Source: Candidatus Proruminimicrobium quisquiliarum
Lineage (GTDB): Bacteria; Elusimicrobiota; Endomicrobiia; Endomicrobiales; Endomicrobiaceae
Reading direction: 5' to 3'
DNA length: 64,000 nucleotides
Assembly (NCBI GenBank): GCA_018433245.1
Contig: JAHDRN010000019.1
Span: 3,622-67,621, forward strand
The translations under genes and the position numbers were made by a program. Shown in pieces: positions 19,173 through 55,541 of the stretch. Position 1 is the stretch's first letter. The number at the start of each line of letters is the position of its first letter. The notes beneath the pieces are model-generated. The model ran no database searches. It was not told where the DNA came from and was given only the letters and a program-made list of their open reading frames with translations.

Positions 19173-20099
19173 TTATAAACTTTTGAAATATTTTATCGTT
19201 TCACGCAATCCGTCTTCCAACTGAACATCCGGAAGCCATTTTAATATTTTTTTTGCCTTTGTTATATCGGGACGCCTCATTTTCGGATCGTCCTGAGGAA
19301 GTTCTTTATAAATTATTTTTGATTTGCTTGCCGTTAATTTTATGATTATTTCCGCAAGTTCTTTTAACGTTATTTCGTTCGGATTTCCGATATTGACGGG
19401 ATATTTGTAATCGGACATCAGCAATTTATAAACGCCTTTTACCAAATCCGATACAAAACAAAAACTTCTCGTCTGCCTTCCGCTGCCGAATACGGTAACC
19501 GGCCGGCCGGCAAGAGCCTGCGATATAAATTCAGGTATGGCCCTTCCGTCTTTTTCATTCATTCCGGGCCCGTAAGTATTAAAAATTCTCACTATTCGCG
19601 TCTTAACTCCGTAATCTCTCAAATAACACATAACGGCCGCTTCCGAAAATCTTTTTGCCTCGTCATAAACGCTTCTGATCCCTATTGAATTTACGTTTCC
19701 CCAGTATTCTTCAGGCTGCGGATTTACAAGAGGGTCTCCGTATACTTCGCTTGTAGAAGCGAATAAAAATTTTGCTTTTTTAAGTCTTGCCAGTTCCAAA
19801 AGATTTAAAGTTCCCAAAGAGCCTGTTTTTAAAGTTTCAAGCGGATATTTTATGTAGTCTTTGGGGCTTGCGGGAGACGCAAAATTCAATACGGCGTCTA
19901 TTTTTCCGGGTATTTTTATATTTTTTGATATGTCGGCTTTGATAAATTTGAATTTTTTATTTTTAAGAAGATGTTTTATGTTTTCTTTTTTGCCGGTAAT
20001 AAAATTGTCAACGGCAATAACTTTATGATTTTTTGAGATAAAAAAATCACACAAATGCGAACCTAAAAAACCAGCTCCTCCGGCTATCAAAACGTTCAT
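19173..20099 (-). CDS. UDP-glucuronate decarboxylase (UDP-xylose synthase)-type SDR
   Basis: [23 protein letters not shown] and RIFNTYGP; collinear with UXS-type enzymes. Confidence 0.85.
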
Positions 20100-20180
20100 T
20101 AAAAATCCTCTTTTTATATTCGGTGATTATATAATTTTGGGAGGTTCTTATCAATACATTATATAGAAGCCCGGCAGCTT

Positions 20181-20203
20181 GGAAGTTTAGAAGTTTGGCA
20201 AAT
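20181..20203. repeat. short copy of the dispersed repeat block GGAAGTTTAGAAG...TTTGGCAAA
   Basis: Matches 11413-11443 apart from an 8 nt deletion. Followed by the palindrome TTTGGCA-AA-TGCCAAA (20193-20208). Confidence 0.55.
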
Positions 20204-20213
20204 GCCAAAACGG

Positions 20214-21425
20214 CTAATTCAGCGGAACAAGATGCGAATCCCAGCCGCCGTATTTTGCCCTGTTGTATTCGGCAATCAATGTGTCGTCATCGGTCAAAGC
20301 GTTTTTTACTCTTAACGCCGTTTCAGTATTGTATAATCCGCCGACTAAAATACCGAACCCTATCGCGGCCGGCGGTCCTACGATCGGAATTTTCGCTATA
20401 TCCGACGCCACCGATAAAATGACTATGATCTGGTCGGCAAACATTTTTGACATAAGTCCGACAGTCAAAAGTTCTGCTCCGGTTTTTGTATTTTCTTCAG
20501 CAGGAAACATCGCATCGTCAACATTATAAACTCCGGCCGAGCCGTAAGCCATAATCGGCGGATATTTTATCCCTATAATTTTTCCAAGAACGGGATAACC
20601 CCTGTTTGAATCGGCATTCGGCAGTTTTGTTCCTATTCCGACTATTTTTTTATCGTAAAAATTTTCGTTCTGAACGTACCAAGAATATTTATCGTCTTTG
20701 AACCCTCTGCTTTTTTGGGCGCGTACAAAATGTCTGTGCCCCGCGATATTGACGCAAAAATTATAGGTTCCGTAATATTTTATGCCTTTTGAATTCTTTT
20801 TTATCCCAAGCAATTGTTCCGCAAGAGCAACCGGATTTGAACTTTTCAATGAAAACGACTTCCAATTTTTTGCATATCGCGACGGAACAACGATAATTTT
20901 GCAGTCATCAGCAGGGACATTTGCAATTATATCGGCATAACCGGCTATATAAGCTGAAAGTATGCTTTTTTGAATATTCTGAATACCGTTTACCGTCCTT
21001 TTAATATTTCTGACGCCCTGTTCGCTGTAAAAACCGGGCAGACATTTATAATCTGAAAACGGGCCGGCAATCATTGAACCGGCAATCCTTTCGGTTGAAA
21101 ACGACGGATACATTAGCCCGCCGAAATCTATATTAACGTCAATTTTCAATTTCTTTAAAATTGCGCTTATATCGGGTGTGTGCGGATCGGACGCGAAAGA
21201 TAAAACCGTCGCCATCAGATAATTTGTCGCGCCTATGGCGTTTAAAGTTCTTGCCTGCAGCGTCGCGATTGAAAGAGTCGTATTATCAACCGAGTTTTGA
21301 AGAATCATTCTGTCTCTGATAAGCTTTGCTATGTTAATCATCATAGCCCAGCTTATCAATAATATCATTGACAAGACCAGAAAATAAGCAAGCACCTGTC
21401 CTTTTCTGTTATTGTTTATTATCAT
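20214..21425 (-). CDS. TadG-like pilus assembly protein (Tad N-terminal domain)
   Basis: N-terminal RKGQVLAYFLVLSMILL hydrophobic segment followed by LQNSVDNTTLSIA, as in TadG/Tad_N proteins. Rest of the protein unrecognised. Confidence 0.6.
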   Translation of the reverse strand: MIINNNRKGQVLAYFLVLSMILLISWAMMINIAKLIRDRMILQNSVDNTTLSIATLQARTLNAIGATNYLMATVLSFASDPHTPDISAILKKLKIDVNIDFGGLMYPSFSTERIAGSMIAGPFSDYKCLPGFYSEQGVRNIKRTVNGIQNIQKSILSAYIAGYADIIANVPADDCKIIVVPSRYAKNWKSFSLKSSNPVALAEQLLGIKKNSKGIKYYGTYNFCVNIAGHRHFVRAQKSRGFKDDKYSWYVQNENFYDKKIVGIGTKLPNADSNRGYPVLGKIIGIKYPPIMAYGSAGVYNVDDAMFPAEENTKTGAELLTVGLMSKMFADQIIVILSVASDIAKIPIVGPPAAIGFGILVGGLYNTETALRVKNALTDDDTLIAEYNRAKYGGWDSHLVPLN

Positions 21426-21936
21426 TTCCTATTTTTACAAACCTTCTTGCTCCCGGATATGCTTTATCATAAAATTCTTCATCCGGAGATTTTATCATTC
21501 TGGCTCTTGCCCACTGCGTCCGTGCTCCGTCCAAACCGAACAGACTTGAAAACATAAGTCTCATGTTATATTTAATTTTTACGTTGTATTTTTTCAGATT
21601 TATTCCGGAATGATCTTTTATATCCTTTCCCAAAACAGTCCCGTTCCAATTTGTCGTTTTTGAACCTTCTTCATCCGCCGAATCGCTTATATTGCTTGAA
21701 CTCAATCCGTTTAAACGAATCATTTTATCGGCCGCTTTTTGCGCGGTCTCTTTTATTTTACCGGATTGCGCCACGGAAACGGCTCTTACAGCCATAAAAG
21801 CGGCTTCGTTGTAAAGAGTATCGTTAACCGCGATAATACATACCTGTATCAGGGCAAACATAAAAACCGTTATAATCATTACGGCGATTAAGCCTTCAAT
21901 AAAAGCCTGCCCGTTATTTTTTTTAAATAAACGCAT
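21409..21936 (-). CDS. TadE-like pseudopilin
   Basis: N-terminal NGQAFIEGLIAVMIITVF resembles the TadE/TadF prepilin-like G/xxxxE motif plus hydrophobic helix. Confidence 0.6.
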   Translation of the reverse strand: MRLFKKNNGQAFIEGLIAVMIITVFMFALIQVCIIAVNDTLYNEAAFMAVRAVSVAQSGKIKETAQKAADKMIRLNGLSSSNISDSADEEGSKTTNWNGTVLGKDIKDHSGINLKKYNVKIKYNMRLMFSSLFGLDGARTQWARARMIKSPDEEFYDKAYPGARRFVKIGNDNKQ

Positions 21937-22135
21937 TGATAACTTCCCTACCGTATCCCAATAAAAAAAATTTGTACTGCCAAAGCCAAATAAACAGTTT
22001 TATCATACCGTATGAAGCGGCGAATAAAACTATGACGAATAAAATATATTCCGTTGAAGCCTGCCCTTTTTTATTTTGTGAGATAAACCTTAACGCGGAT
22101 TGCGTTTTAAGAGAATGTTGTTTTAATCTGTCCAT
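21923..22135 (-). CDS. flp: Flp-family type IVb pilin
   Basis: KKG/QASTEYILFVIVLF fits the Flp processing motif G/XXXXEY followed by a hydrophobic stretch; 70 aa. Confidence 0.7.
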   Translation of the reverse strand: MDRLKQHSLKTQSALRFISQNKKGQASTEYILFVIVLFAASYGMIKLFIWLWQYKFFLLGYGREVINAFI

Positions 22136-22168
22136 ATTACGAGTCCGCCGGCATTAAATTTTAAGCGG

Positions 22169-22900
22169 TTATTGCTCTATTATTTTGGGTGTCACAAAAA
22201 TCAAAACGTTCGTTTTATTATCTACCGTTTTTGTATTTTTAAATAAAGTTCCCAGAATAGGAATATCAGATAATATCGGGACTCCGGAAGTGGTCTTGTC
22301 TTTGTAGTTTTCAATAAGTCCGGCTATAACTATCGTCTGCTGGTCTTTAAGGACAACGTTTGATTTGGCCTGTCTTTTGGCTATATTAGGAAAGCCCTGA
22401 ACGCTGTTTGACCAGTCCAGCCTTGAAAGCTCGGCTTCTATAGTAACGTCTATCGTGCCGTCAGGTAGAATTTTCGGAAGAACTTCGGTTATAATTCCGT
22501 ATTCTTTCCATTCCACGTTCCCGCCGGATACGCCCGAAACGGCGATCGGAAATTCTCCGCCTACCAGAAATCTGGCTTTATTGCCCGATTTTGTCACAAG
22601 TTTCGGATTTGACAAAACCTGCGCCGCCCCGTTTTCCTGCAGTAATTTTAACGTCGCACTCAGAGGAGTATATCTTACCCAATCGTTATATTCTACAAGC
22701 GAGGGATATATAGTAGTATGGTGTGCTCCCTGAATAAACAATTCTCCCGTTGATATTTCATCAACCCATTTGATGCCGTATTCTTTTGCTTTATTGTTGT
22801 TAATCTCGGTAATTTCTATCGATATTTCAACCAGTTTTTCGGCAAACAAATTATGTATGCACAAAAACAGCAACATCATAACAAAAAAATTTTTTTTCAT
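22169..22900 (-). CDS. short secretin (CpaC/RcpA-like C-domain only)
   Basis: Signal peptide. Secretin C-domain motifs NPKLVTKSGNKARFLVGGEFP and GVPILSDIPILGTLFK...VLIFVTPKII. Only 243 aa. Confidence 0.8.
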   Translation of the reverse strand: MKKNFFVMMLLFLCIHNLFAEKLVEISIEITEINNNKAKEYGIKWVDEISTGELFIQGAHHTTIYPSLVEYNDWVRYTPLSATLKLLQENGAAQVLSNPKLVTKSGNKARFLVGGEFPIAVSGVSGGNVEWKEYGIITEVLPKILPDGTIDVTIEAELSRLDWSNSVQGFPNIAKRQAKSNVVLKDQQTIVIAGLIENYKDKTTSGVPILSDIPILGTLFKNTKTVDNKTNVLIFVTPKIIEQ

Positions 22901-22903
22901 TTT

Positions 22904-23962
22904 TTACCTTCTGTAAAATGGTTTTTGAACTATTTTTATGTTTCGCATGTTATTGTGAATGCTTATCTGAAGCTGTTTTGTTTCATCCGTATTAAAATCA
23001 ATAAGTGCAAGCCCTATGGCTTTTTTAAAAGTGGGAGAAAACGTGCCGCTTGTTACGTATCCTATTTCTTTGCCGTCAGAAAATACTTTATTGCCGTTTC
23101 TCGCTATTGAGCCTTCGCATATAAACGCTATTGATTTTTTTGATATTTTATTTTTATCAAGGGAGTTTTTGCCTATAAAATCTTTATTCCAGCATATTGT
23201 TTTTTCAAATCCGGCGTCAAGCGGCGTAATGTTTTCGTCTATTTCATGCCCGTGTAAAGGCATGCACGCTTCAAGACGCAGCGTATCTCTGCATCCCAGA
23301 CCGCACGGTTTAGCTCCGAGTTCAGTCAGTTTATTCCATATAAACGAAGCCTTATCTTTTGAGATAAAAATTTCAAATCCGTCTTCGCCCGTATAGCCTG
23401 TTCTTGCTATTTTTGAAAATCGGGCTGACACATTTTTTAATTTTATGTCTCTGCCGGTAAAATATTTCATATCTGAAACATTTTCTTCAATTATGTTTGA
23501 AATAATTTCAACGGATTTAGGACCCTGAAGCGCCAGAAGACAAATTTCGGAACTGATATTTTCAATATCAGTATCTCCTGTTTTATGGTCATTAAGCCAT
23601 TTAAAATCTTTATCAAGATTGCCTGCATTAACAACCATCATATAGTAATTTTCGAATTTATAAACTATGATATCGTCTTTAATTCCGCCTTCATTATTTA
23701 AAAGCATTGAATATCTTGCTTTGTATAAAGGCAGATCAGACATTTTTGAAATCGTTACATAATCAAGAAATTTACCGGCATCATTTCCTGAAATGATAAA
23801 CGTTCCCATATGTGACGTGTCAAAAATTCCTGCATTTGTTCTTACGGCGTTATGCTCTTCAATAATTGAAGTATACATAACCGGCATATCCCATCCGCCG
23901 AATTCGGTAAATTTTGCGTTTAATTTTTTGTGTTCTTCATAAAGAGGAGTCTGTTTTAACAT
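22904..23962 (-). CDS. gcvT: glycine cleavage system aminomethyltransferase
   Basis: [21 protein letters not shown] and DTSHMG motifs; 352 aa. Confidence 0.92.
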
Positions 23963-24050
23963 GGTGTTTTTCCTTTAGTTATATATTTAATTTTTTACTG
24001 TTTTTAAATTTCAAAACTGCCGTTAATATTTCGGCTTTTTAACAAGACAA

Positions 24051-24128
24051 AGAATTCTGCGGCTGCGTACGAAAGCAAAAAGAAGCGAACTGTAAGAAAA
24101 ATTCAAAATCGCAATCAAAAGAACAATG
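24051..24128. repeat. partial copy of the dispersed intergenic repeat
   Basis: GCGTACGAAAGCAAAAAGAAGCGAACTGTAAG...AAAATTCAAAA aligns with 11629-11699 at an eye-estimated 70 percent. Confidence 0.45.
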
Positions 24129-24131
24129 GCG

Positions 24132-25451
24132 TTATAAAATACTTGGAAGCTCAGTGCACTTACCCAAAGCCTGATGACAGGCGTTTAAAATCATCTCGGA
24201 AAGTCCCGGATGAAAAAACATATTTTTTGATAAATCGTTTACGGTATTTTTATTCTGCACGACCACGGATGCTACGTCTATAAGTTCGTCGGCGTTTGCG
24301 CCTATAATCCATACGGCAAGTATTCTTCCGGTTTTTTTATCAACAGCCGCTTTTACAAAACCCGTTCTTTGTCCTTCCATCTGCGCTCTTGCCGAAGCGG
24401 CAAAAGGAAATTTACCGTAAAGTATTTCGCCGTATTCGTTAAAATCATTTGATTTTACTGAAGCTGCCGGCGGATATGAGAAGACTGCTTTGGGAATAAC
24501 AAATTCTTGCGGATTTAAAATATTTTCAGCAATATTTAATCCGTCCTGCTGGGCCGTATATGCAAGAAAATTTTTACCGGTTATGTCGCCTGCGGCGAAA
24601 ACATTGTCATTGTTTGTCGTTCCGTTTTGTTTCACAGGTATATAATTTTTAGCGTCCGTTCGAATCCCCGCGTTTTTTACTTTAAGCGCGTCAGCCGTTG
24701 ACTGTCTTCCGGTTACTACAAGAACCTTGTCAAACGAATCAGCGTCTTTCAAAGCGTCTTTACAGCCGGTTTCAACAGTAACGCCCTGCCTTTGAAGATT
24801 TTTTGTAATTTCTGCGGCGATTTCAGCGTCTTCGCCGGGCATAAGCTGAGGAAAAATTTCTCTTAAAGTTATTTCAGAACCAAACGCCGAATATATCGTT
24901 GAAAGTTCTATTCCTATGGCTCCGCCGCCTATCACGAGCATTTTTTTTGGAACTTCATTTAATAAAAGAGCGTCCGTTGAATCTATAAATTTATCATGGT
25001 CTATTAAAACGCCGGGTATTGATTTTGACTCTGAGCCCGACGCGATCACTATTTTGCCGGCAGAATATTCGGTTCCGTTTACCGTTACCGTAGAATCCGA
25101 CGAAAAAGAAGCCTCGCCTTTTATTATTTCTATTTTATAGCTTTCAACCATTCTTTGAAGGGATTTTCTTAAATTTTCAATGAATTTGTTTTTCTTTGCC
25201 ATTATATCCTGAAAATTTAGCTGCACGGGAGAAGTTTTTATGCCGTATTCGCAGGCTTTTGATACCGTATTTTTTAATTTCAGAGACTGCCACAAAAATT
25301 TTGTCGGTATGCATCCGCAGTTAAGGCATGTTCCGCCTATTTCGTTTTTTTCAATAAGAGCGGTTTTACTGCCCAGCTGGGCAAATCTTACGGCGCAGGT
25401 ATATCCGGCGGGGCCTGCTCCGATAACGATGACGTCGTATTTCTTATCCAT
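24132..25451 (-). CDS. lpd: dihydrolipoyl dehydrogenase
   Basis: FAD motif VIGAGPAGY, redox disulfide GGTCLNCGCIPTK, C-terminal HPGLSE interface motif. Confidence 0.88.
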   Translation of the reverse strand: MDKKYDVIVIGAGPAGYTCAVRFAQLGSKTALIEKNEIGGTCLNCGCIPTKFLWQSLKLKNTVSKACEYGIKTSPVQLNFQDIMAKKNKFIENLRKSLQRMVESYKIEIIKGEASFSSDSTVTVNGTEYSAGKIVIASGSESKSIPGVLIDHDKFIDSTDALLLNEVPKKMLVIGGGAIGIELSTIYSAFGSEITLREIFPQLMPGEDAEIAAEITKNLQRQGVTVETGCKDALKDADSFDKVLVVTGRQSTADALKVKNAGIRTDAKNYIPVKQNGTTNNDNVFAAGDITGKNFLAYTAQQDGLNIAENILNPQEFVIPKAVFSYPPAASVKSNDFNEYGEILYGKFPFAASARAQMEGQRTGFVKAAVDKKTGRILAVWIIGANADELIDVASVVVQNKNTVNDLSKNMFFHPGLSEMILNACHQALGKCTELPSIL

Positions 25452-27174
25452 TTTTCAAACTTTCTTGAATTTTTGATTTTATATATTCAACGATTTTATC
25501 CGTTTTTATTATTTCGGCTTTCGTTTTATCGTCTTTTCTCGCCTTAAATTCAACGTTGCCGTCTTTAAGATTTTTTTCGCCGATCGTAATTCTAAAAGGG
25601 ATTCCCATTAAATCGGCGTCTTTAAATTTGATTCCCGCCCTTTCGTCGCGGTCGTCAAGCAAAACTTCAATTTTATCTTTTTTAAGCTGTTTGTATATTT
25701 CTTCGGCTGTTTTTTTAATCGCCTCATTGTTAAAATCAACAGGCACTATTGAAACTTTATACGGCGCAAGCGAAACCGGCCATATTATTCCGTTTTCGTC
25801 ATACGACTGTTCTATTGTGGCGGCAAGGATTCTTGTTACTCCTATTCCGTAACAGCCCATTATCATAAAATTTTCTTTGCCCTGCGCGTCAAGATAAGTC
25901 GCTTTCATTGATTTTGAATATTTTGTCCCGAGTTTAAAAACATGCCCTATTTCAATTCCTCTTGAAAACTGCAGTTTTTCTTTTTTGCATCTCGGGCAGA
26001 GATCGCCTTTTACGACCGTTCTTATATCTGCCGTAATATCTGCTTTGAAATCTCTGTTTATGTTGACGTTTTTGATATGTTTATCGTCTTTATTTGCTCC
26101 GACAACGGCGTTTACAATATTTTCAACCGCATAATCGGCTAATATTTTTACCTGTTTTTTTAAGTTAACCGGTCCTGCAAAACCGACTTTTGCGCCGGTT
26201 ACTTCCTGTATTATTTCAGGCGAGGCAAGTTCCAGCTCATTGCAGCCCAAAAGCGACTGAAGTTTTGATTCATTAACGTCATGGTCGCCTCTTACAAGAA
26301 CGGCTACGGGCGCACCATCTGCGACGTATATCATCGTTTTTATAAATTTCCGTTCTGTGGACGATAAAAATTTAGCGACGTCTGCAACCGAACCTATATT
26401 AGGGGTAAAAACCTCTTCCATCTCGGGCATCGGCTCCGAATTTTCTTTTTTTTCATATTTTATGCATTCGGCTTTTTCGGAATTTGCGCCGTATCCGCAG
26501 CTGCACCATGCGATTTCTTCTTCGCCCGTATCGGCAAGCACCATAAATTCATGCGAAAAATTTCCGCCTATGGCGCCGGATGACGCTTCAACGACTCTGT
26601 ATTTAAAACCGCATCTTTTGCATATATTTTCGTAAGCTTCGTAAACTCTTTTATAGTATTTTTCCAAATCGGCTTCATCGGCATGGAACGAATAAGCGTC
26701 TTTCATCATAAATTCTCTGGCTCTCATAACTCCGAATCTGGGTCTTATTTCGTCTCTGAATTTCATACCGAACTGGTACAGCATCAAAGGCAGCTGCCTG
26801 TATGAGCTTACGTCGTTTCTCACTACGTTTGTTATGCCTTCTTCATGCGTCGGCGCAAGGCAGAATTCTGCATCTTTTCTGTCTTTAAGTCTGAATAATT
26901 CTTTGCCGTAAACGTTCCATCTTCCCGTTTCAATCCACAAATCTTTAGGTAAAAGCAACGGAAGGCGTACTTCCTGTCCGTCTATATTATCCATTTCTTC
27001 TCTTATTATGGTTATTACGTTTTCAAGAGTTTTCAGCCCTGTAGGAAGCAGTTCAAAAAATCCGCTGGCAAGTTTTCTTATCATTCCGGAACGAACCATT
27101 AATTTTGCAGAAATATTGTCCATATCCGAAGGAGCTTCTTTCAATGTCGGTATAAATGCTTTTGAAAAATACAT
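25444..27174 (-). CDS. proS: proline--tRNA ligase (bacterial type with editing insertion)
   Basis: Class II motifs (FRDEIRPRFGVMRAREFMMKDAYSF, GCYGIGVTR); 576 aa. Confidence 0.95.
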   Translation of the reverse strand: MYFSKAFIPTLKEAPSDMDNISAKLMVRSGMIRKLASGFFELLPTGLKTLENVITIIREEMDNIDGQEVRLPLLLPKDLWIETGRWNVYGKELFRLKDRKDAEFCLAPTHEEGITNVVRNDVSSYRQLPLMLYQFGMKFRDEIRPRFGVMRAREFMMKDAYSFHADEADLEKYYKRVYEAYENICKRCGFKYRVVEASSGAIGGNFSHEFMVLADTGEEEIAWCSCGYGANSEKAECIKYEKKENSEPMPEMEEVFTPNIGSVADVAKFLSSTERKFIKTMIYVADGAPVAVLVRGDHDVNESKLQSLLGCNELELASPEIIQEVTGAKVGFAGPVNLKKQVKILADYAVENIVNAVVGANKDDKHIKNVNINRDFKADITADIRTVVKGDLCPRCKKEKLQFSRGIEIGHVFKLGTKYSKSMKATYLDAQGKENFMIMGCYGIGVTRILAATIEQSYDENGIIWPVSLAPYKVSIVPVDFNNEAIKKTAEEIYKQLKKDKIEVLLDDRDERAGIKFKDADLMGIPFRITIGEKNLKDGNVEFKARKDDKTKAEIIKTDKIVEYIKSKIQESLKNG

Positions 27175-27312
27175 AAATATCCTCTTTTCGTTGTTTTTAG
27201 ATTGTTAATTTTATCATTTTTTATTGATTTTCACTAGTCCGAAAACCGCGCAGGCTTTCAAAAACAGAATAAATTTTATATCATAGACCGAAATAGATAT
27301 CAGGAGGGGCAT

Positions 27313-27891
27313 ATGAAAGTCGTCGCTTTTAACTGCAGTCCCAGAAAAGACGGCAATACTTCAATTCTTATAAATACCGTGTTTAAAGAACTTGAAAAAC
27401 ACAATATTGAAACAAAACAAATACAGTTCGGCCCGCAAAAAGTATCAGGATGCATAGCATGTTACCAATGCGTAAAAAATAAAGATAAAAAATGCGTATT
27501 AAAAGACGATATAGTAAACGACTGCATATCGGAAATGGATAAAGCCGACGGAATTATAATAGGCTCTCCCGTTTATTTCGCCAACATAACGCCTATTGCG
27601 GCTTCTTTAATATGCAGAGCCGGCATGGTTTCAAGGGCAAACGGTTCAATGCTGGCAAGAAAAGTCGGAGCAGGAATAGTTTCATTAAGAAGAGCGGGAG
27701 CTCTGCACGCCTTTAATTCAATTAACAACTTTTTTACAATATTGGAAATGACAGTAGTAAGTTCAAATTACTGGAATATGGGTTTCGGCAAACAGCCCGG
27801 CGACGTTTTAAAAGATGAGGAAGGCTTACAAATAATGACAAAACTCGGCGAAAATATGGCATGGCTTTTAAATAAAACGGGGAATAAATAA
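27313..27891 (+). CDS. NADPH-dependent FMN reductase / iron-sulfur flavoprotein family
   Basis: MKVVAFNCSPRKDGNTS, GSPVYF and the CIACYQC cluster. AGGAGG RBS. Confidence 0.8.
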   Translation: MKVVAFNCSPRKDGNTSILINTVFKELEKHNIETKQIQFGPQKVSGCIACYQCVKNKDKKCVLKDDIVNDCISEMDKADGIIIGSPVYFANITPIAASLICRAGMVSRANGSMLARKVGAGIVSLRRAGALHAFNSINNFFTILEMTVVSSNYWNMGFGKQPGDVLKDEEGLQIMTKLGENMAWLLNKTGNK

Positions 27892-27892
27892 A

Positions 27893-28405
27893 ATGAAATA
27901 TCTTTTAACGCTTTTTACTGTTTTGACGTTTGTCTCAGTTTCTTTTGCGCAGCAGCAAGCCGAAAATAACAGGCTTTTTATCATAGAAAGAAGCAAAAAC
28001 GCAAATGTCGTATGTTATGACGCAAATATGACAAAAGACGGGAAAATTGATAAAGAAAAACCGGTTGACGCATATTGGATTATGTATGCAGAAAACGCCG
28101 GCAGGCAAGAAATAAGCGCTTTTGAAAAAAGAGCTTACGGTTTTAAAATAAACTATAACGAAAGCGCGAAAAATTTTGATTTTTCGTTAAAAGCCGTTGA
28201 AAATAAGAATATGAATATAATTATGGTTGACGGAAACCCTAAAGTCAAAATAATGATAAATAATACGGAATCTTATTTAAATAAAGTATACATTCAGTCA
28301 AAAGACGGCCCTTTGGGAATACCTAAAGTGTATTACTATGTATTGTACGGAACAACAATCGCTTCAAATGAAAATATTGAAGAAAAAATCATATTGAAAA
28401 AATAG
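27893..28405 (+). CDS. secreted protein of unknown function (possibly DUF4833-like)
   Basis: Signal peptide. IIERSKNANVVCYDAN resembles my recollection of DUF4833; unverified. Confidence 0.5.
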   Translation: MKYLLTLFTVLTFVSVSFAQQQAENNRLFIIERSKNANVVCYDANMTKDGKIDKEKPVDAYWIMYAENAGRQEISAFEKRAYGFKINYNESAKNFDFSLKAVENKNMNIIMVDGNPKVKIMINNTESYLNKVYIQSKDGPLGIPKVYYYVLYGTTIASNENIEEKIILKK

Positions 28406-28461
28406 TTAATTTATGTTAGACTTATTATGCGAAGATGGGATATATACCTAAGAGGTTGTAT

Positions 28462-28845
28462 ATGAAGAAAAAGAAAAGAGGTTTTTCTCTATCGGAACTT
28501 GTTGTAACACTTGTTATGGTTGCTATTCTTGCAATCATAGGGTTACCTATATACAGAGGATACGTAAAAAAAGGCATCGCCACTGAAGGAAAGGCGCTTT
28601 TGGGCGAAATTAACGCCGCCCAGCAGATATATTATACAAGACACGGACAGTATTACGCGGGATCCGTAGGTCAGACTTTCGGCGGAGCATTTGGCGTTGA
28701 CGCGAGAAGAAATAAATATTTTACATCTTATAATCTTTCTACCAATGCGCAGACGTTTACAGCCTCAACGAGTTCTAAAGACGGAACTCAGAGTTTAACT
28801 TTGGTCGGAAGTTTCACTACCGATCCGAAATTGATTGAAAGGTAA
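28462..28845 (+). CDS. type IV pilin / pseudopilin-like protein (prepilin N-terminal methylation motif)
   Basis: KKRGFSLSELVVTLVMVAILAIIG is a class III signal peptide (G/FSLSE). Start set at ATG 28462, which has an upstream AGAGG. Confidence 0.85.
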   Translation: MKKKKRGFSLSELVVTLVMVAILAIIGLPIYRGYVKKGIATEGKALLGEINAAQQIYYTRHGQYYAGSVGQTFGGAFGVDARRNKYFTSYNLSTNAQTFTASTSSKDGTQSLTLVGSFTTDPKLIER

Positions 28846-28869
28846 GTTAATTAAAAGATATAATAAAAA

Positions 28870-28897
28870 ACAAGAAGTCTCTTATTCTTGTTTTTTA
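28870..28897 (+). terminator. rho-independent terminator after the pilin gene
   Basis: ACAAGAA-8 nt loop-TTCTTGT followed by a T-run. Confidence 0.6.
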
Positions 28898-28912
28898 TTT
28901 TGTCGTTCAAAT

Positions 28913-29003
28913 GGAGAGGTGGCCGAGTTGGTTTAAGGCGGCAGTCTCGAAAACTGCTACTCGGGAAACCGGGTCGGGGGTTCGAATCCCCCCTTCTCCG
29001 CCA
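28913..29003 (+). tRNA. tRNA-Ser, anticodon CGA, CCA encoded
   Basis: Acceptor GGAGAGG/CTTCTCC; anticodon stem GCAGT/ACTGC with loop CTCGAAA; long variable arm; T arm GGGGG-TTCGAAT-CCCCC; GCCA end. Confidence 0.93.
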
Positions 29004-29008
29004 TGTTT

Positions 29009-29030
29009 GAGCCCTTTTGGGCTCTTTTTT
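29009..29030 (+). terminator. rho-independent terminator after tRNA-Ser
   Basis: GAGCCC-TTTT-GGGCTC followed by TTTTTT. Confidence 0.8.
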
Positions 29031-29224
29031 ATTTATTTTGAACTTCGGATATCGGCTCGCTACCGCTCGGCTGTGCTGGATATACCTTGTCCAAAATGAA
29101 ATAAAAAATATCCTCAAAATCATCTCAAACAGTGATACTGCTTACACCACACTTTTAAATACTTAATTTCACCTAAAATCTTAATGTTTCAAACGACAAA
29201 AAAATATCAAAATTTGAAAAAATA

Positions 29225-30517
29225 CTATTTTAATGCTCTGAATATTGGACCTATTAAGAAGTCTTTGCCTAGATTTTCCGGATTTTTTACTTGATTTAAA
29301 CAATATGTCTTATCGTTTATTTGAGAGTAGTCTATTTTTATGCCCATGATATTTTCTAATTGTTTGCTTGTTACTAGGTTATATAAGAGAGTACCTCCCG
29401 CTTCTTGTGTCCGCTCATCGTAAGATTTTTGGTTAAAAAATTTTAACTTATCCACAGAATAATAAAGTACTTCACCTACATATAAAACTGTTCGTATTTT
29501 TTCATTTTTAACACGTTCAGCCACTTCATTTATTGTTCGATAATACGTTGTTTTAACCGTTCCAGCAAACATACCAATAAGTTCGGCAGTATTATCTTCA
29601 TAAACCAATAAAAAAGTTGCAAGTATTTCTGGTTCTTTTTCTTTTGTTTGTTCAAGTTGCATTTGAGCCACAAAAATATGATTCAAAGCCCACCTCTGTA
29701 GTAGGATAATATCATTGTCACAATAATCCTTTCCGAACATTGGACTTTTTGCTAAATCAAACCGCATATCTTCTTTGTTGAAAACTTTTTCTCTCAGTCC
29801 ATAAGAATTTATTCGGCTACCTATTTGTATTTTTCCAGCATTATAACAGCAGTCTTGAATAAATATTGTCTGCCTATACTGGATATGATTTAAAGCTTCC
29901 TCTATTTGTTTTTTCAAGTTTTTGCATTTAGTACAACTGCATGGATAAGTATTGTACACATCCGATACAAATTTCCACATAGTCATCGTACCTTCGATTA
30001 TTTTTTCATATATATCAATCTCTTTGCCATTTTCTATAAACAATACCAATATGCTAAAAAATACTTCAAAGCAATTTTTATAGTGCTTTTCTAAGATATT
30101 AGTTATTTCAGCAAGTAAATCTTTAAAATCCTTATCACTATCTATAGTCAACAAAATTTTAAATTCATCAAAATTATTGGCTGCCGTATAGATTTTTAAT
30201 GATATAGCTTTTTCTAGCTTAAATGGACTTTCCTTAGTTATTTTATTACGAATATCAACAAACCACGCCATATTATCGTTAGATAGATAGGTTACCCGCT
30301 TAGCTTCATAGAATGCTTTAAGTTCTGGCGTGGAGAAGTTTTTTTGCATAACAAATGTTATGTTTCTGAATTCTTGAAAGAATGCATCTATTTTGGGAAT
30401 ATTTTCAAAGATATAATCATCAGGATTAACAGCTTTCAAACTGGATAGTGCACTATAAAACTTTTGCAAAACTGGATATATCAAGCAATCTTTTTCATAT
30501 AACATTTTATTCCCCAT
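29225..30517 (-). CDS. hypothetical protein, 430 aa, no recognisable domain
   Basis: Long uninterrupted ORF in an AT-rich block, last gene of a 3-gene minus-strand cassette. Has a CSCTKC motif. Confidence 0.6.
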   Translation of the reverse strand: MGNKMLYEKDCLIYPVLQKFYSALSSLKAVNPDDYIFENIPKIDAFFQEFRNITFVMQKNFSTPELKAFYEAKRVTYLSNDNMAWFVDIRNKITKESPFKLEKAISLKIYTAANNFDEFKILLTIDSDKDFKDLLAEITNILEKHYKNCFEVFFSILVLFIENGKEIDIYEKIIEGTMTMWKFVSDVYNTYPCSCTKCKNLKKQIEEALNHIQYRQTIFIQDCCYNAGKIQIGSRINSYGLREKVFNKEDMRFDLAKSPMFGKDYCDNDIILLQRWALNHIFVAQMQLEQTKEKEPEILATFLLVYEDNTAELIGMFAGTVKTTYYRTINEVAERVKNEKIRTVLYVGEVLYYSVDKLKFFNQKSYDERTQEAGGTLLYNLVTSKQLENIMGIKIDYSQINDKTYCLNQVKNPENLGKDFLIGPIFRALK

Positions 30518-30611
30518 AAGCCCATTTATTGTAGCAAACCAATAAAGTTTCAGAACATCAATATGCTACTTACGATTTATTTAAGCATCATGTAGTAAAA
30601 TAATTATCTTG

Positions 30612-30911
30612 TTACTTGTATCGTTTATTTTTGCCAGTCAAGCTGTATTGCATACCGTATTTCTTGGCATCCTGTTTATGGGCTGCCCAATGTTCTTTTT
30701 GACTAGAAAATACTGCTAAATTATTAAGAGAATTATTCTGTTTATTTCTATCTTTATGATGTACAACTTCTCCTGAATTTAAATTGCGACCAATCTTATT
30801 TTCTGCTACCAACCGATGTACTGCTATGCCACTATCTTTGAATATACGATAGCCATTATTATTGACATATGTTTTAGTCGTTCTATATAGAAATTTAGTT
30901 CTATTTTTCAT
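30612..30911 (-). CDS. small HNH endonuclease (phage/homing HNH_3-like)
   Basis: HRLVAE...VVHHKDRNKQNNSLNNLAVFSSQKEHWAAH matches the H-N-H core; 99 aa. Start overlaps the upstream gene by 11 nt. Confidence 0.8.
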   Translation of the reverse strand: MKNRTKFLYRTTKTYVNNNGYRIFKDSGIAVHRLVAENKIGRNLNSGEVVHHKDRNKQNNSLNNLAVFSSQKEHWAAHKQDAKKYGMQYSLTGKNKRYK

Positions 30912-31518
30912 TATTGTCTCCTTTGTAATTGTTATGTCCAGCTGGGATTAAATCATAAGAACGCCCATCACATTCTGGCCAATGTTTGCAAACTTCTTCA
31001 GCCATATTATCGGGTTGCCCTTTTATTTTTACCAACTTTGTTTCGTTTGATAAAAATTGCTCTCCACAATGTAAACATTCAAGCATAACATGTAACTCGT
31101 TGTTATTCGTAGATATGGCTATAACTTCTTCGTAGGATTTTTTATTGAATTCTATCTCTATTTTCTTTTGCGCAAAGTATTCTTCCTCAGTTGGAAATTC
31201 TTCCAAGCGATATATGGCTAAGGTATCGTCAAGTGTGCGTTTTGCATAAGCCAATTTATCCTCAGGCAACTTTATCAATTCAACCCAATTTTTACATCCC
31301 GCCATCTGTGCAATAATATGTTGGAGTTTCATTAATGTGAAGTTTTCTTCTCCTTCGTATCCATTATTAAAATCATAGATAATTTCATCTATGTTGAAAT
31401 ATTTTGGATCGTACGAATAGAGTGGAGTGCCGTCTTCGTGATTATCGGATGTGTGTTGTGTTTTGTAGTCTCTGAACAGATTTTTGGCTTGCAACTTAAA
31501 ATACTCAATGTTTTTCAT
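30901..31518 (-). CDS. hypothetical protein, 205 aa, C-terminal Cys/His pairs (possible zinc ribbon)
   Basis: ORF with CLHCGEQF...CKHWPECDG; no family recognised. Confidence 0.55.
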   Translation of the reverse strand: MKNIEYFKLQAKNLFRDYKTQHTSDNHEDGTPLYSYDPKYFNIDEIIYDFNNGYEGEENFTLMKLQHIIAQMAGCKNWVELIKLPEDKLAYAKRTLDDTLAIYRLEEFPTEEEYFAQKKIEIEFNKKSYEEVIAISTNNNELHVMLECLHCGEQFLSNETKLVKIKGQPDNMAEEVCKHWPECDGRSYDLIPAGHNNYKGDNNEK

Positions 31519-31809
31519 AATATAATCCCCTTTTTATTATCTAAGATTATTATCTATATTTTTTTGCGTTCGTAGTCTTTGGCTAGATAATAAACTTAGT
31601 AAGGTTTATATTACTATCAACGTTGGTTGATGAAATCTTTGCACGAACGAGCTGGCCCACCAACAGGGCACAAAAGTATTTTAATAAAAGTTTTTTATAA
31701 AGTCAATTGATTAAAAAGCAGCTAAATATTTATTATCTTTCCTGATTTTTCCAATCAAAATCATCATTGTTTTTGGCTGGTTGTATCTGATGTAAAGTAT
31801 TATTAGATA

Positions 31810-53176: not shown

Positions 53177-54223
53177 ATGAAAAAATTTATTTCCGTTTTA
53201 TGTTTTTTATTTTTAAGTATTTTTATTTCAAATTATTCTTTCACTGAAGCGGCAGAATCCATTGACGCTGACAGTTTACAGCAAACAACCGTCACTCCTT
53301 ATTTGCAGAAAAAAATCACAGCAGGCAAAAATCTTGTTTATGGTGCAACATTTCAGCTTGCATGGAATGCCTTATGCGATGATATTATAAAAGTTCCTTT
53401 GCAATTATCAGGAACATCGGAAATACAAAATATGCTTAACGAGAGATTAGTCAATAAAGAAGATATTGCGGAAAATACTTGCATCGCCATGGCAGGTTTT
53501 GAAAGAAATAACATTGTTCAAAAAATAGATGAGGCTTTATTAAAAAAATTTAACAATACAAAAGGCTGCGGCATAAAATTACATAATCCCAGTGATATTC
53601 TGGCTTATGCCTATCTGTTTAAAAATCTTGAATTTGAAAATAAATTTGAAGATTTAAACTCAAATCCGATTTTTTTCAAAAATGAAACAGAAGTAGAAAC
53701 TTTCGGAATAAAACAATATTCATACGAAATTGCCAAGCAGGTTAAAATACTTTATTATAACAATGACAACGATTTTATATTAAAACTGGAATCCAAATCT
53801 CAAAATGATGAGATAATACTTGCAAAAATAGAGCCTAAAGAAATGCTTTTAACAACCGTTGATTATGTTTTTGAACAAATTAAAAATAAAAAAACTATTG
53901 CCTTAAAAAAAGGTGATATCTTAAAAATACCAAAGTTTGATTTTGATATTTTTAAAAAATACCGTGAACTAACAGGCAGAAGTTATGGCGTCTATGCTTT
54001 AGCAGGCGCCATTCAGGGAATTAAATTTAAACTTGATGAAAAAGGAGTAATCCTTGAATCATATGCAGCTATTGTGATGCAGGAAAAAAGCATATCAGTC
54101 CCGGTGGAGCCAAAACAGTTAATTTTTGACAAGCCTTTTTTATTTTGCCTTAAAGAAAAAAACGGCAAATATCCGTATTTTGTAATGTGGATTGATAACG
54201 CGGAATTAATGTTAAAAAAATAA
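53177..54223 (+). CDS. secreted serpin-like protein, copy B
   Basis: Paralogue of 51924-52979 with an identical promoter/RBS region. The central about 90 aa are nearly identical. The N-terminal half and the loop before FDKPFLF are divergent. Confidence 0.7.
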   Translation: MKKFISVLCFLFLSIFISNYSFTEAAESIDADSLQQTTVTPYLQKKITAGKNLVYGATFQLAWNALCDDIIKVPLQLSGTSEIQNMLNERLVNKEDIAENTCIAMAGFERNNIVQKIDEALLKKFNNTKGCGIKLHNPSDILAYAYLFKNLEFENKFEDLNSNPIFFKNETEVETFGIKQYSYEIAKQVKILYYNNDNDFILKLESKSQNDEIILAKIEPKEMLLTTVDYVFEQIKNKKTIALKKGDILKIPKFDFDIFKKYRELTGRSYGVYALAGAIQGIKFKLDEKGVILESYAAIVMQEKSISVPVEPKQLIFDKPFLFCLKEKNGKYPYFVMWIDNAELMLKK

Positions 54224-54246
54224 TAATTTACAAGGAGTACTTATTT

Positions 54247-54666
54247 ATGAAAAAATCAGTTTTGTTTTTATTATCTGTATTTGGATTTGTTTTTGCAGGA
54301 TGCGCTACTGTTCCAACAACTTGGGAACAAACTGTTATCAATTATCAGGCGGCGGCTCCGAAAGTAGAATTAGGAATGTCAAAACAGGAAGTAGTTGATA
54401 TACTGAACCCGACTCAAACACTATTGGCAAATACTGAAATAAAACAACCTGACAGATATATAAAAGACGGCGTTAACGTTGAAATTCTATATTACAGAAG
54501 CGGCTGGATTTCTGACAACTTAAATACCGATGACGAGTACACACCCTATGTTTTCAATAACGGAAAACTTGTCGCAATCGGATGGATGACTATCGGAGGA
54601 CCGAAAAACACATCTTCCTCCGTACCAAAGGTAAACGTCCAAAACAAAACCACTGTTATTTATTAA
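54247..54666 (+). CDS. lipoprotein (BamE/SmpA-OmlA-like or DUF3192-like)
   Basis: Lipobox FAGC. GMSKQEVVDILNP is typical of SmpA/OmlA-fold lipoproteins; family assignment tentative. Confidence 0.6.
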   Translation: MKKSVLFLLSVFGFVFAGCATVPTTWEQTVINYQAAAPKVELGMSKQEVVDILNPTQTLLANTEIKQPDRYIKDGVNVEILYYRSGWISDNLNTDDEYTPYVFNNGKLVAIGWMTIGGPKNTSSSVPKVNVQNKTTVIY

Positions 54667-54715
54667 TTTATATACTGTATGAACTCCAAATCAAAATTTA
54701 GTATAGAGAGAGGTT

Positions 54716-55531: not shown

Positions 55532-55541
55532 TTGGTTGGTT

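What the first reader, a model, noticed from the sequence alone, without database searches (positions are those of the whole stretch)
29004..31800. AT-rich three-gene cassette with a small HNH nuclease inserted next to tRNA-Ser
Directly downstream of tRNA-Ser(CGA) and its terminator lies a minus-strand operon-like trio. Gene one is 205 aa with a C-terminal Cys/His zinc-ribbon-like pair. Gene two is a 99 aa HNH_3-type endonuclease overlapping it by 11 nt. Gene three is a 430 aa protein with no recognisable domain. Codon usage and composition look different from the neighbours (fewer CG/GC-rich codons). tRNA 3' flanks are classic island insertion points. However, I find no integrase and no direct repeat of the tRNA 3' end by eye. 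It is therefore either a decayed island or a compact stand-alone module. A minimal HNH nuclease translationally coupled to two unknown partners resembles nuclease-based defence or homing cassettes rather than a lone homing endonuclease.
Basis: partly seen in the sequence, partly recalled or inferred. Interest (0 to 1): 0.65.

Follow-up and report, generated by a model that had tools for sequence, protein, structure and literature searches.

The report
Recombinase-island remnant with RNA-gated nuclease module
The three genes next to tRNA-Ser are what is left of a mobile element whose recombinase was lost: an apparently undescribed folded RNA leader in front of a small protein coupled to an HNH nuclease, followed by a swappable phage-lambda-Ea47-like gene, a layout that in other bacteria heads known anti-phage defence genes.

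Summary
Three minus-strand ORFs (205, 99 and 430 aa) lie beside tRNA-Ser(CGA), the 99 aa ORF is an intact HNH_3 nuclease overlapping the first by 11 nt, and the region is moderately AT-rich.

It is not an obligate three-gene system. Across 12 distinct loci in Elusimicrobiota, Bacteroidota and a Reyranella-type alphaproteobacterium, plus unassigned metagenome contigs, the constant unit is gene 1 plus a ~155-nt leader that is more conserved than the protein. The HNH follows in 5 of 12 loci, always with the 11-nt overlap. Gene 3 follows in 2 of 12, and three other loci carry a gene 3 relative without gene 1 or the HNH.

The leader is a pseudoknotted RNA that pairs with the ribosome-binding site and start codon. 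18 of 40 pairs show compensatory changes, and no Rfam family matches.

The module sits just downstream of a large serine recombinase in related elements, and the window keeps that gene's last ~10 codons. The closest relative has a different recombinase island at the same tRNA. So this is a decayed island.

Elsewhere the gene 1 domain is fused to nuclease-type domains, and known defence systems fill the cargo slot.

Best reading: a translationally gated nuclease/defence module. The function is inferred, not shown.

The parts
28913..29003 (+). tRNA-Ser(CGA). Its 3' end is the integration point of the island.
   Evidence: ARAGORN and Rfam tRNA at 58 bits. The window and sister genome L030 are collinear up to window 29000 and diverge exactly at the acceptor 3' end.
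29009..29034 (+). Intrinsic terminator-like hairpin plus T-run after the tRNA.
   Evidence: GAGCCCTTTTGGGCTC followed by TTTTTTATTT.
29144..29204 (-). 62-nt 3' flank element downstream of gene 3, marking the downstream limit of nucleotide homology with L005.
   Evidence: blastn and alignment A5. In L005 it occurs twice, flanking an inserted 128 aa GIY-YIG gene. It was not found in other loci.
29225..30517 (-). Gene 3: 430 aa (426 aa from the second ATG), distantly lambda-Ea47-like, function unknown. It is a swappable cargo gene.
   Evidence: 103 homologs. Weak precomputed PF26900 hits. hhalign against lambda Ea47 covers residues 23-100 only (E 7e-4, probability 26%) but falls on the family's invariant motifs. 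AF2 model has pLDDT 85.7 and pTM 0.84, with no match at E <= 0.001 in the PDB or BFVD. dN/dS is 0.23 against L005.
30612..30911 (-). Gene 2: minimal 99 aa HNH_3 nuclease, translationally coupled to gene 1 through an 11-nt overlap.
   Evidence: Pfam HNH_3 E 2.4e-12. PHROG HNH families down to 1.5e-14. Catalytic core invariant. The same 11-nt overlap is seen in L005, L006, L013 and L121. dN/dS is 0.10.
30901..31518 (-). Gene 1: 205 aa, with a rare conserved N-terminal domain (~residues 1-95) plus a C-terminal C4 zinc ribbon. It is the constant protein of the module.
   Evidence: Homologs and alignments. About 400 representatives among 1.84 billion. No Pfam, PADLOC, NCBIfam or PDB match. The N-domain is fused elsewhere to CoiA_N and DUF4268. 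dN/dS is 0.22.
31519..31671 (-). Structured 5' leader RNA, ~155 nt. P1 pairs 31665-31659 with 31627-31621. P2 is a loop-loop pseudoknot pairing 31649-31643 with 31573-31567. P3 pairs 31599-31584 with 31556-31541. P4 pairs 31612-31601 with 31530-31519, covering the Shine-Dalgarno sequence and abutting the AUG.
   Evidence: Alignments A4 and A6. Pair counts: 92.6% paired, and 18 of 40 pairs changed on both sides, reached by 0 of 500 shuffles, with slid controls giving 2-7. RNAalifold recovers P1, P3 and P4 independently. The covariance model hits only sites upstream of gene 1 in 1.46 Mb. No Rfam match. The 5' end at ~31671 is inferred from the promoter and was not mapped.
31678..31706 (-). Sigma-70-type promoter of the cassette: TTGACT, 17-nt spacer, TAAAAT.
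   Evidence: The position is conserved in the other loci (alignment A4).
31733..31765 (-). Remnant of the 3' end of a large serine recombinase gene (...DDFDWKNQER, then a stop codon). It marks the upstream limit of the conserved cassette.
   Evidence: Translation compared with recombinase C-termini from L003, L006, L002 and L118. blastn homology with L005, L002 and L006 starts at 31764, 31753 and 31756. Recombinase fragments or intact genes occupy the same position in L002, L006 and L118.

Best explanation
Window 29144-31765 is the surviving att-proximal end of an integrative element of the large-serine-recombinase (LSR) type. That element inserted at the 3' end of tRNA-Ser(CGA) in an Endomicrobiaceae genome and later lost its recombinase and everything upstream. 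What remains is one promoter-driven unit. A ~155-nt pseudoknotted leader RNA base-pairs with the ribosome-binding site and start codon of gene 1, so the default state is translationally OFF. Gene 1 (a rare N-terminal domain plus a zinc ribbon) is translationally coupled to a minimal HNH nuclease. A lambda-Ea47-like gene occupies the variable cargo slot behind them. The anatomy, the modularity, the recombinase remnant, the RNA structure and purifying selection are shown by the analyses. The function is inferred: gene 1 is the adaptor or sensing partner of a nuclease effector (HNH here; CoiA-like or DUF4268 domains when fused), the leader keeps this potentially toxic pair silent until some trigger opens P4, and the module works as a phage-defence or element-addiction device that travels at the head of other defence cargo.
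For: Island status: collinearity with the 92%-ProRS sister genome stops exactly at the tRNA 3' end, and that genome has DUF2924, an LSR and a type I R-M system there instead. The same 2.6-kb unit is 86% identical in a different neighbourhood in L005. Recombinase link: an intact LSR lies directly upstream of the leader in L118/L119. LSR fragments lie there in L002, and an LSR C-terminus at the contig edge in L006. DUF2924 remnants are in L013 and L123. The last ~10 LSR codons are in the window. Constant core: leader plus gene 1 in 12 of 12 loci; HNH in 5 of 12, always with the 11-nt overlap; gene 3 in 2 of 12. RNA. G.U pairs that work only on the sense transcript argue for RNA rather than a DNA palindrome. 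Nuclease partnership: N-domain fusions to CoiA_N and DUF4268; HNH catalytic core invariant. Defence association: the cargo after gene 1-HNH in L006 is PD-Lambda-2-like (beta 6e-45, capP-like 5e-30); the gene after gene 1 in L124 is PDC-S68 at 1240 bits. SIR2 and HEPN genes lie next to gene 1 in L002. A gene 3 relative abuts Hachiman HamA/HamB. All three genes are under purifying selection, dN/dS 0.10-0.23.
Against: No experiment and no homology to a characterised defence protein: PADLOC gives nothing significant for gene 1 or gene 3. Both confident AF2 models lack structural relatives, so the biochemical roles of gene 1 and gene 3 are guesses. Defence association rests on about a dozen loci, not on a statistical enrichment. 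The gene 1-HNH interaction was not modelled. The LSR remnant in the window is only ~10 codons. The trigger for the leader is unknown, and all helices are mutually compatible, so no ON conformation is evident. L121 and L111 show the module with no recombinase or tRNA nearby.
Confidence: 0.55

Rival explanations
1. The three genes are one compact, stand-alone three-component defence system in which all three proteins act together.
For: The trio recurs intact, with the same spacing, in L005 and L029. All three genes are under purifying selection. Lambda shows a superficially similar order, ea59-ea31(HNH)-ea47.
Against: Gene 3 follows gene 1 in 2 of 12 gene 1 loci, and relatives of it stand without gene 1 or the HNH in L001, L003 and L117. 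The gene 1-HNH pair occurs without gene 3 in L006, L013 and L121. Gene 3 is separated by a 94-nt gap, not coupled. Lambda Ea59/Ea31 are a Septu-type PtuA/PtuB pair unrelated to gene 1 and gene 2.
Confidence: 0.07
2. The HNH is a selfish free-standing homing endonuclease that invaded the site downstream of gene 1 and spreads between gene 1 alleles. Gene 1 is merely its landing site.
For: Presence/absence polymorphism at one site: L013 (gene 1 + HNH) against L118 (gene 1 only), both beside tRNA-Ser(TGA) and LGT. HNH relatives at 66-70% identity follow an unrelated lipoprotein-like gene in L007-L012. A GIY-YIG gene was inserted nearby in L005. PADLOC and PHROG label the family as homing endonuclease or HNH endonuclease.
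Against: The identical 11-nt overlap persists while gene 1 diverges to 36-42% identity, and the HNH has the lowest dN/dS, 0.10. At 99 aa it has no DNA-binding domain for a long target. The gene 1 domain is independently fused to other nuclease-type domains, which points to a functional partnership.
Confidence: 0.15
3. Leader plus gene 1 is a housekeeping part of the integrative element itself, for example a recombination directionality factor or excision/immunity regulator for the adjacent serine recombinase. The HNH and gene 3 are passengers.
For: Gene 1 lies immediately downstream of the LSR in L118, L002 and L006, and of its remnant in the window. It is small and has a zinc ribbon, with tight translational control. 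From memory, directionality factors of serine integrases are diverse and often adjacent to the integrase gene.
Against: Gene 1 and the leader stay intact and under purifying selection where the recombinase is gone (window, L005, L013, L121). Gene 1 also occurs beside a tyrosine integrase (L125) and with no recombinase within 5 kb (L111, L124). This reading does not explain the fusions to nuclease-type domains.
Confidence: 0.15
4. The HNH is a phage or satellite packaging accessory of the HK97 gp74 type that works with terminase.
For: L118 carries DUF5681 and a large terminase a few kb upstream of gene 1. L013 and L123 have DUF5681 fragments.
Against: There is no terminase in the window. L118, the locus with the terminase, lacks the HNH. 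Gene 1 and gene 3 relatives are almost absent from 2.9 million viral contigs, one hit each. tblastn of gene 3 against 50,697 phage records found nothing.
Confidence: 0.03

Closest known systems
Genomic islands integrated at tRNA 3' ends by large serine recombinases, carrying defence cargo
   Same: The site is the tRNA 3' end, variable between sister genomes. A recombinase remnant is present. There is no long direct repeat. Defence-type cargo is found in related loci.
   Different: The recombinase and most of the element are gone here. The recombinase is paired with a DUF2924 gene. Directly downstream of it sits a conserved RNA-plus-gene 1 module that I could not find described.
abiF RNA motif / RCd22 with AbiF (a prophage Abi system with type III TA-like RNA control; PMC12373285)
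   Same: A conserved structured RNA lies immediately upstream of a mobile-element gene, and the RNA restrains expression or activity of a potentially toxic protein.
   Different: No Rfam hit to abiF or any other family. There is a single pseudoknotted unit rather than repeated motifs. No terminator separates the RNA from the gene. Gene 1 matches no Pfam family, so it is not an Abi_2/HEPN protein. Here the RNA demonstrably masks the ribosome-binding site; any antitoxin-like action in trans is untested.
Free-standing HNH_3 endonucleases of phages (Pfam PF13392; PHROG HNH families)
   Same: Gene 2 is a bona fide HNH_3 domain with an intact catalytic core.
   Different: It is only 99 aa with no DNA-binding module. 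It is translationally coupled to a zinc-ribbon protein, and it is chromosomal rather than phage-borne.
Phage lambda b-region genes ea47 / ea31 / ea59
   Same: Gene 3 shares the N-terminal motif block of Ea47. The position is att-proximal and accessory. Lambda's neighbours Ea59/Ea31 score as Septu-type PtuA and PDC-M01B.
   Different: The similarity to Ea47 is weak and partial (probability 26%). Gene 1 and gene 2 are unrelated to Ea59 and Ea31. Ea47 itself has no known function (PMC3224144).
Conserved regulators that precede diverse defence systems (CapH/CapP, BrxR-type; recalled from the literature, not tested here)
   Same: One conserved small gene with its own control region sits in front of variable defence cargo: PD-Lambda-2-like, PDC-S68, or Ea47-like.
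   Different: Gene 1 has no HTH, WYL or M78 domain. Control appears to be by RNA structure at the level of translation. Gene 1 is itself coupled or fused to nuclease-type domains.

Membership tests
HNH_3 endonuclease (Pfam PF13392) | Profile score above the curated cut-off | tested here: met
   46.7 bits against a cut-off of 24.8, E 2.4e-12.
HNH_3 endonuclease (Pfam PF13392) | Catalytic His / Asn / His(Asn) residues present | tested here: met
   H51, H52, N59, N60, N64, H74 and H78 are invariant in 9 relatives. Nuclease activity was not tested.
Phage_lambda_Ea47 (Pfam PF26900) | Significant profile match over the family's length | tested here: inconclusive
   Only 'weak' precomputed hits. The local Pfam scan returned no hit. 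hhalign against lambda Ea47 gave probability 26% and E 7e-4 over residues 23-100 only. tblastn against phage records found nothing.
Septu (PtuA ATPase + PtuB HNH), as in lambda Ea59/Ea31 | AAA_15-type ATPase partner plus a PtuB-type HNH | tested here: not met
   Gene 1 has no ATPase domain. Gene 2 against Ea31 gives E 0.73. Ea59 scores as PtuA and PDC-M01A, and Ea31 as PDC-M01B, in PADLOC; genes 1 and 2 do not.
Any PADLOC-listed defence system | Profile hit of the component proteins | tested here: not met
   Gene 1 has only a spurious 11-bit HamB hit. Gene 3 has none. Gene 2 hits only generic 'homing endonuclease' models.
Free-standing homing endonuclease gene | Presence/absence polymorphism of the nuclease gene at an otherwise conserved site | tested here: met
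   L013 (with HNH) against L118 (without) at the same tRNA-Ser(TGA)/LGT site.
Free-standing homing endonuclease gene | Own DNA-binding module and a cleavage site in the nuclease-less allele | tested here: inconclusive
   The only domain detected in the 99 aa protein is the HNH core, so no DNA-binding module was found. The cleavage site in the nuclease-less allele cannot be tested with these tools.
Integrative element of the large serine recombinase type | Large serine recombinase gene (Resolvase + Recombinase domains) inside the element | tested here: not met
   There is no intact gene in the window, only the last ~10 codons. Intact or fragmentary LSR genes occupy the equivalent position in L118, L002 and L006. 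The window is therefore filed as a remnant, not a functional element.
Integrative element of the large serine recombinase type | Site-specific insertion, with the same site variable between close relatives | tested here: met
   Sister genome L030 carries a different LSR island at the same tRNA. Divergence starts exactly at the tRNA 3' end.
Known RNA families (Rfam 15, including the abiF, DUF3268 and HEARO motifs) | Covariance-model match | tested here: not met
   No family matches the leader at E <= 1 in the window or at E <= 0.1 in five other loci.
Cis-regulatory 5' leader RNA (translational control class) | Covariation-supported structure in the 5' UTR that pairs with the Shine-Dalgarno sequence and start codon | tested here: met
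   In P4, 6 of 9 pairs of the main helix changed on both sides. RNAalifold extends it to the A and U of the AUG.
Cis-regulatory 5' leader RNA (translational control class) | A defined trigger (ligand, protein, temperature) that switches the structure | not testable with these tools
   No alternative ON fold is evident. This needs probing and reporter assays.
Type III toxin-antitoxin | Tandemly repeated RNA antitoxin units followed by a terminator, then the toxin gene | tested here: not met
   There is a single RNA unit per locus, no tandem repeats, and no terminator between the leader and gene 1.

The most novel reading that the evidence does not exclude
The pseudoknotted leader, gene 1 and a nuclease effector (HNH, CoiA-like or DUF4268) form a previously unrecognised RNA-gated conflict system found in several bacterial phyla. 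In this reading the nearly invariant RNA is more than a translational brake. It is a functional partner of gene 1, acting as an antitoxin-like inhibitor or as the sensor of an infection cue, and it releases a nuclease when a phage or a competing element arrives. Serine-recombinase elements carry it as the fixed 'first cassette' of their defence cargo.
Probability: 0.25. Interest if true: 0.8.

Novelty: new variant of a known kind. Interest (0 to 1): 0.62.

Why it matters
Three things would follow if this holds. First, a structured RNA of ~155 nt with a loop-loop pseudoknot, nearly invariant across Elusimicrobiota, Bacteroidota and a Reyranella-type alphaproteobacterium and absent from Rfam, is a new candidate riboregulator with an obvious read-out (masking of the ribosome-binding site), so it can be tested directly. 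Second, it marks a rare protein domain (~400 clusters among 1.84 billion) that repeatedly partners with nuclease-type domains and sits at the head of known defence systems. That gives a new handle for finding defence cargo on serine-recombinase elements, and a first context-based lead on lambda Ea47-like proteins, whose function has been unknown for decades. Third, it shows how a tRNA-adjacent cassette with no integrase and no repeats can be explained as the selected remnant of a serine-recombinase island.

Tried and rejected
- A direct or inverted repeat of the tRNA 3' end as att sites: only chance-level AT-rich matches.
- Family assignment of genes 1 and 3 by Pfam, PADLOC, PHROGs and NCBIfam: nothing significant.
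- Structure-based assignment: the gene 3 model (pLDDT 85.7) and gene 1 model (pLDDT 82.9) have no PDB match at E <= 0.001. The best BFVD hit is E 2e-3, to uncharacterised phage proteins. Profile and sequence searches of the PDB found nothing for the gene 3 family or the HNH, and only chance-level hits (E >= 0.26) for the fused protein P0344.
- Homology of the trio to lambda ea59-ea31-ea47: rejected for genes 1 and 2, weak for gene 3.
- A phage origin: gene 3 gave no tblastn hit in 50,697 phage genomes. Genes 1 and 3 gave one hit each in IMG/VR.
- A strict empty-site test: the only same-species contig (L029) has the same arrangement. The nearest species has the site occupied by another island rather than empty. 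The 84% relative is not syntenic there.
- The leader as a known RNA, including the DUF3268 motif suggested by weak DUF3268 hits in 4 gene 1 relatives: no Rfam match.
- The leader as a DNA operator palindrome: disfavoured by G.U pairs and by pseudoknot covariation.
- The 62-nt 3' element as a general cassette end: found only in the window, L029 and L005.
- Literature on Ea47 function: none found.
Full report
**1. Observation**

The window has three minus-strand ORFs of 205 aa (30901-31518), 99 aa (30612-30911) and 430 aa (29225-30517). They converge on tRNA-Ser(CGA) at 28913-29003, which is followed by a terminator hairpin.

- The 99 aa ORF overlaps the 205 aa ORF by 11 nt. It is a clear HNH_3 domain (46.7 bits against a cut-off of 24.8), and its catalytic core is invariant among relatives.
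- The 205 aa protein carries a CxxC...CxxxxC zinc ribbon.
- Neither large protein matches Pfam, PADLOC, PHROGs or NCBIfam.
- GC is 31.2% against a window mean of 35.7%, the 7th percentile. This is driven by genes 2 and 3 (GC3 z about -2), while gene 1 is typical.
- No att-like repeat was found.

**2. Host and site**

The neighbouring prolyl-tRNA synthetase places the window in Endomicrobiaceae (Elusimicrobiota). The closest reference genome (L030, 92% identity) is collinear with window 20000-29000.

The two sequences are identical through the tRNA body and diverge exactly at the acceptor 3' end. Beyond the tRNA, L030 carries a different island: two unknown genes, a 536 aa large serine recombinase (LSR), a DUF2924-like gene and a type I R-M system.

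The tRNA-Ser 3' end is therefore a variable integration site and the cassette is accessory. A strict empty site was not found. The only same-species contig (L029) has the same arrangement.

**3. The trio is modular, not obligate**

I collected 12 distinct loci that encode gene 1 relatives: window/L029, L005, L002, L006, L013, L110, L111, L118, L121, L123, L124 and L125.

- The HNH follows gene 1 in 5 of 12 loci (window, L005, L006, L013, L121), always with the same 11-nt overlap. This holds even where gene 1 is only 36-42% identical.
- Gene 3 follows in 2 of 12 loci (window, L005).
- Gene 3 relatives stand without gene 1 or the HNH in three other loci: L001, L003 (directly after Hachiman HamA/HamB) and L117 (after tail genes and a Fic protein on a phage contig).
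- HNH relatives at 66-70% identity follow an unrelated lipoprotein-like gene in termite-gut contigs.
- The whole 2.6-kb unit (window 31764-29144) is 86% identical in L005 in another neighbourhood.
- All three genes show purifying selection between the two copies: dN/dS 0.22, 0.10 and 0.23.

**4. Remnant of a serine-recombinase element**

In L118/L119 the gene order is DUF5681, terminase, T5orf172, DUF2924, LSR, leader, gene 1, tRNA-Ser(TGA), then core genes.

- L002 has an internally deleted LSR (an N-terminal 60 aa and a C-terminal 96 aa fragment) directly upstream of the leader.
- L006 begins with the LSR C-terminus.
- L013 and L123 keep DUF2924 remnants.
- In the window, the minus-strand frame upstream of the promoter reads ...DDFDWKNQER and then stops. 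This matches the LSR C-termini (TLDWNEQKR, TTDWKEQEK, TSNWKKQEK).
- Nucleotide homology to L005, L002 and L006 begins exactly there, at 31753-31764.

So the cassette is the att-proximal end of an LSR element whose recombinase was deleted. From memory, serine integrases leave no long direct repeats, which would explain the missing repeat.

Six of the 12 loci have a tRNA (Ser or Asp) beside the module.

**5.

The ~240 nt upstream of gene 1 are more conserved than the protein. They are nearly invariant in L013 (gene 1 42% identical) and across contigs with 30-56% GC.

A sigma-70-type promoter (TTGACT, 17-nt spacer, TAAAAT; 31706-31678) precedes a ~155-nt leader. The structure has these elements:

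- P1, a hairpin.
- P3, a long hairpin.
- P2, a 7-bp loop-loop pseudoknot between P1 and P3.
- P4, which pairs an upstream segment with the Shine-Dalgarno sequence and the start region.

On the 12-sequence alignment, 92.6% of cells are paired. 18 of 40 pairs show changes on both sides; 0 of 500 shuffles reach this, and slid controls give 2-7. P2 is 98.8% paired, with 4 of 7 pairs covarying. G.U pairs are frequent, which fits an RNA on the gene 1 sense strand rather than a DNA palindrome.

RNAalifold independently recovers P1, P3 and P4, and extends P4 onto the AUG. A covariance model finds one strong hit (106-173 bits) per gene 1 locus and nothing else in 1.46 Mb. No Rfam 15 family matches. The DUF3268 motif, which weak DUF3268 hits had suggested, is a different RNA.

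All helices are mutually compatible, so the folded state is predicted to block translation of gene 1. The trigger is unknown.

**6. Gene 1 and its partners**

The gene 1 family is rare: 400 representatives at E <= 1e-3 among 1.84 billion clusters. The conserved domain is always N-terminal. The C-terminal ends vary: a zinc ribbon, other domains, or none.

The AF2 model (pLDDT 82.9) has no PDB relative. The longer family members are informative. P0344 adds a CoiA_N zinc finger (27.3 bits, above the cut-off) followed by a body that I read as a CoiA-type nuclease. P0330 and P0303 add DUF4268. From memory, both belong to PD-(D/E)xK-type nuclease assemblages; I did not test this.

Together with the conserved translational coupling to the HNH, this suggests the gene 1 domain is an adaptor or sensor for nuclease effectors.

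**7. Gene 3**

Gene 3 has 103 homologs, including in Chitinispirillales, Bacteroidota and Gastranaerophilales. The model is confident (pLDDT 85.7, pTM 0.84) but has no PDB match at E <= 0.001 and no PDB profile hit.

The link to lambda Ea47 is weak: precomputed PF26900 'weak' hits, and an hhalign probability of 26% over residues 23-100. That alignment does fall on the family's invariant motifs, F..FRNITFVxQK and W....RN...KE. Ea47's function is unknown.

Its positions (behind Hachiman, behind Fic, and att-proximal like lambda's b region) are typical of accessory or defence genes.

**8. Cargo context**

- Behind gene 1-HNH in L006 lies a PD-Lambda-2-like set: capP-like M78 peptidase (5e-30), 'beta' (6e-45) and PD-Lambda-2_C (1e-16).
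- Behind gene 1 in L124 lies PDC-S68 (1240 bits).
- L002 has SIR2_2 and HEPN genes upstream.
- L005 gained a GIY-YIG gene.
- L030 has a type I R-M system.

The slot behind leader-gene 1 is thus repeatedly filled by defence genes.

**9. Mechanism and rivals**

Shown: the anatomy, the modularity, the LSR remnant, the RNA structure that masks the ribosome-binding site, an intact HNH core, and purifying selection.

Inferred: gene 1 plus the HNH is a two-part nuclease that the leader keeps silent, acting in defence or element addiction, and gene 3 is independent cargo.

Rivals:
- An obligate three-gene system. The co-occurrence data contradict it.
- A selfish homing HNH. The L013/L118 polymorphism and promiscuous HNH relatives support it. 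The deeply conserved overlap, the low dN/dS and the nuclease-domain fusions argue against it.
- Gene 1 as a recombination directionality factor or element regulator. Adjacency to the LSR supports it. Retention without any recombinase, and occurrence next to a tyrosine integrase in L125, argue against it.
- A packaging HNH. Unlikely, because the families are almost absent from viral contigs.

**10. Novelty and limits**

Islands at tRNA genes, HNH nucleases and RBS-masking leaders are all known kinds. Three things appear new:

- the RNA family;
- the gene 1 domain and its nuclease partnerships;
- their fixed place downstream of DUF2924-LSR genes, at the head of defence cargo.

I found no description of these in Rfam or in the searchable literature.

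Limits:
- only 12 loci;
- no enrichment statistics;
- the transcript 5' end is inferred from the promoter;
- the LSR remnant in the window is short;
- no experiments.

Noticed in passing
L030 1-8185 (OY762939.1, sister Endomicrobiaceae genome): At the same tRNA-Ser(CGA) 3' end the sister species carries a different island: 264 aa and 225 aa unknown proteins, a 536 aa large serine recombinase, a DUF2924-like gene, and type I R-M HsdR/HsdS. The island extends beyond the 10 kb fetched.
   Followed up: partly
L005 7040-7762: A 128 aa GIY-YIG-domain gene is inserted downstream of gene 3 and is flanked by two copies of the 62-nt element that lies at window 29144-29204. It looks like a duplication made on insertion of a second nuclease-type gene.
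   Followed up: partly
L007-L012 (termite-gut metagenome contigs): HNH relatives at 66-70% identity, 90-111 aa and lacking the N-terminal extension, follow a 127-159 aa lipoprotein-like ORF about 10 nt upstream instead of gene 1. They lie near an XRE-type regulator, a nucleotidyltransferase/HEPN pair and a PemK-like toxin.
   Followed up: no
L004 (phage lambda 22686-26973): In PADLOC, lambda Ea59 scores as PtuA and PDC-M01A (611-667 bits) and Ea31 as PDC-M01B (375 bits). So lambda's b region encodes a Septu-type pair next to ea47.
   Followed up: partly
L117 5004-6374 (IMG/VR contig): The only gene 3 relative on a viral contig is split into 96 aa and 308 aa ORFs, apparently a pseudogene. It follows tail genes and a 516 aa Fic-domain protein.
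   Followed up: no
L111-L115 5001-8677: A 281 aa gene 1 relative with its leader heads an operon of three unknown proteins (296, 545 and 68 aa) with no significant Pfam or PADLOC match. The same arrangement was recovered on many contigs. This is a candidate new cargo system.
   Followed up: partly
P0117 and P0245 (gene 1 family): Some family members contain two tandem copies of the gene 1 N-terminal domain.
   Followed up: no
window 54100-57600: This is the lowest-GC stretch of the window (about 26.7%), lower than the cassette. It contains small ORFs of 131-196 aa with no Pfam match and one DUF3192 protein.
   Followed up: partly
window 28435-28845: A type IV pilin-like gene with a prepilin-type N-terminus (FSLSELVVTLVMVAIL) lies immediately upstream of tRNA-Ser and is conserved in the sister genome (L030 8341-8733).
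   Followed up: no
L123 190-4746 (Elusimicrobium posterum CP152277.1): Upstream of this gene 1 locus lie a 1238 aa protein with a faint NPHP3_N hit and inverted DUF2924/DUF5681 genes. Downstream is a ParB-methyltransferase. This looks like another rearranged element of the same kind.
   Followed up: no
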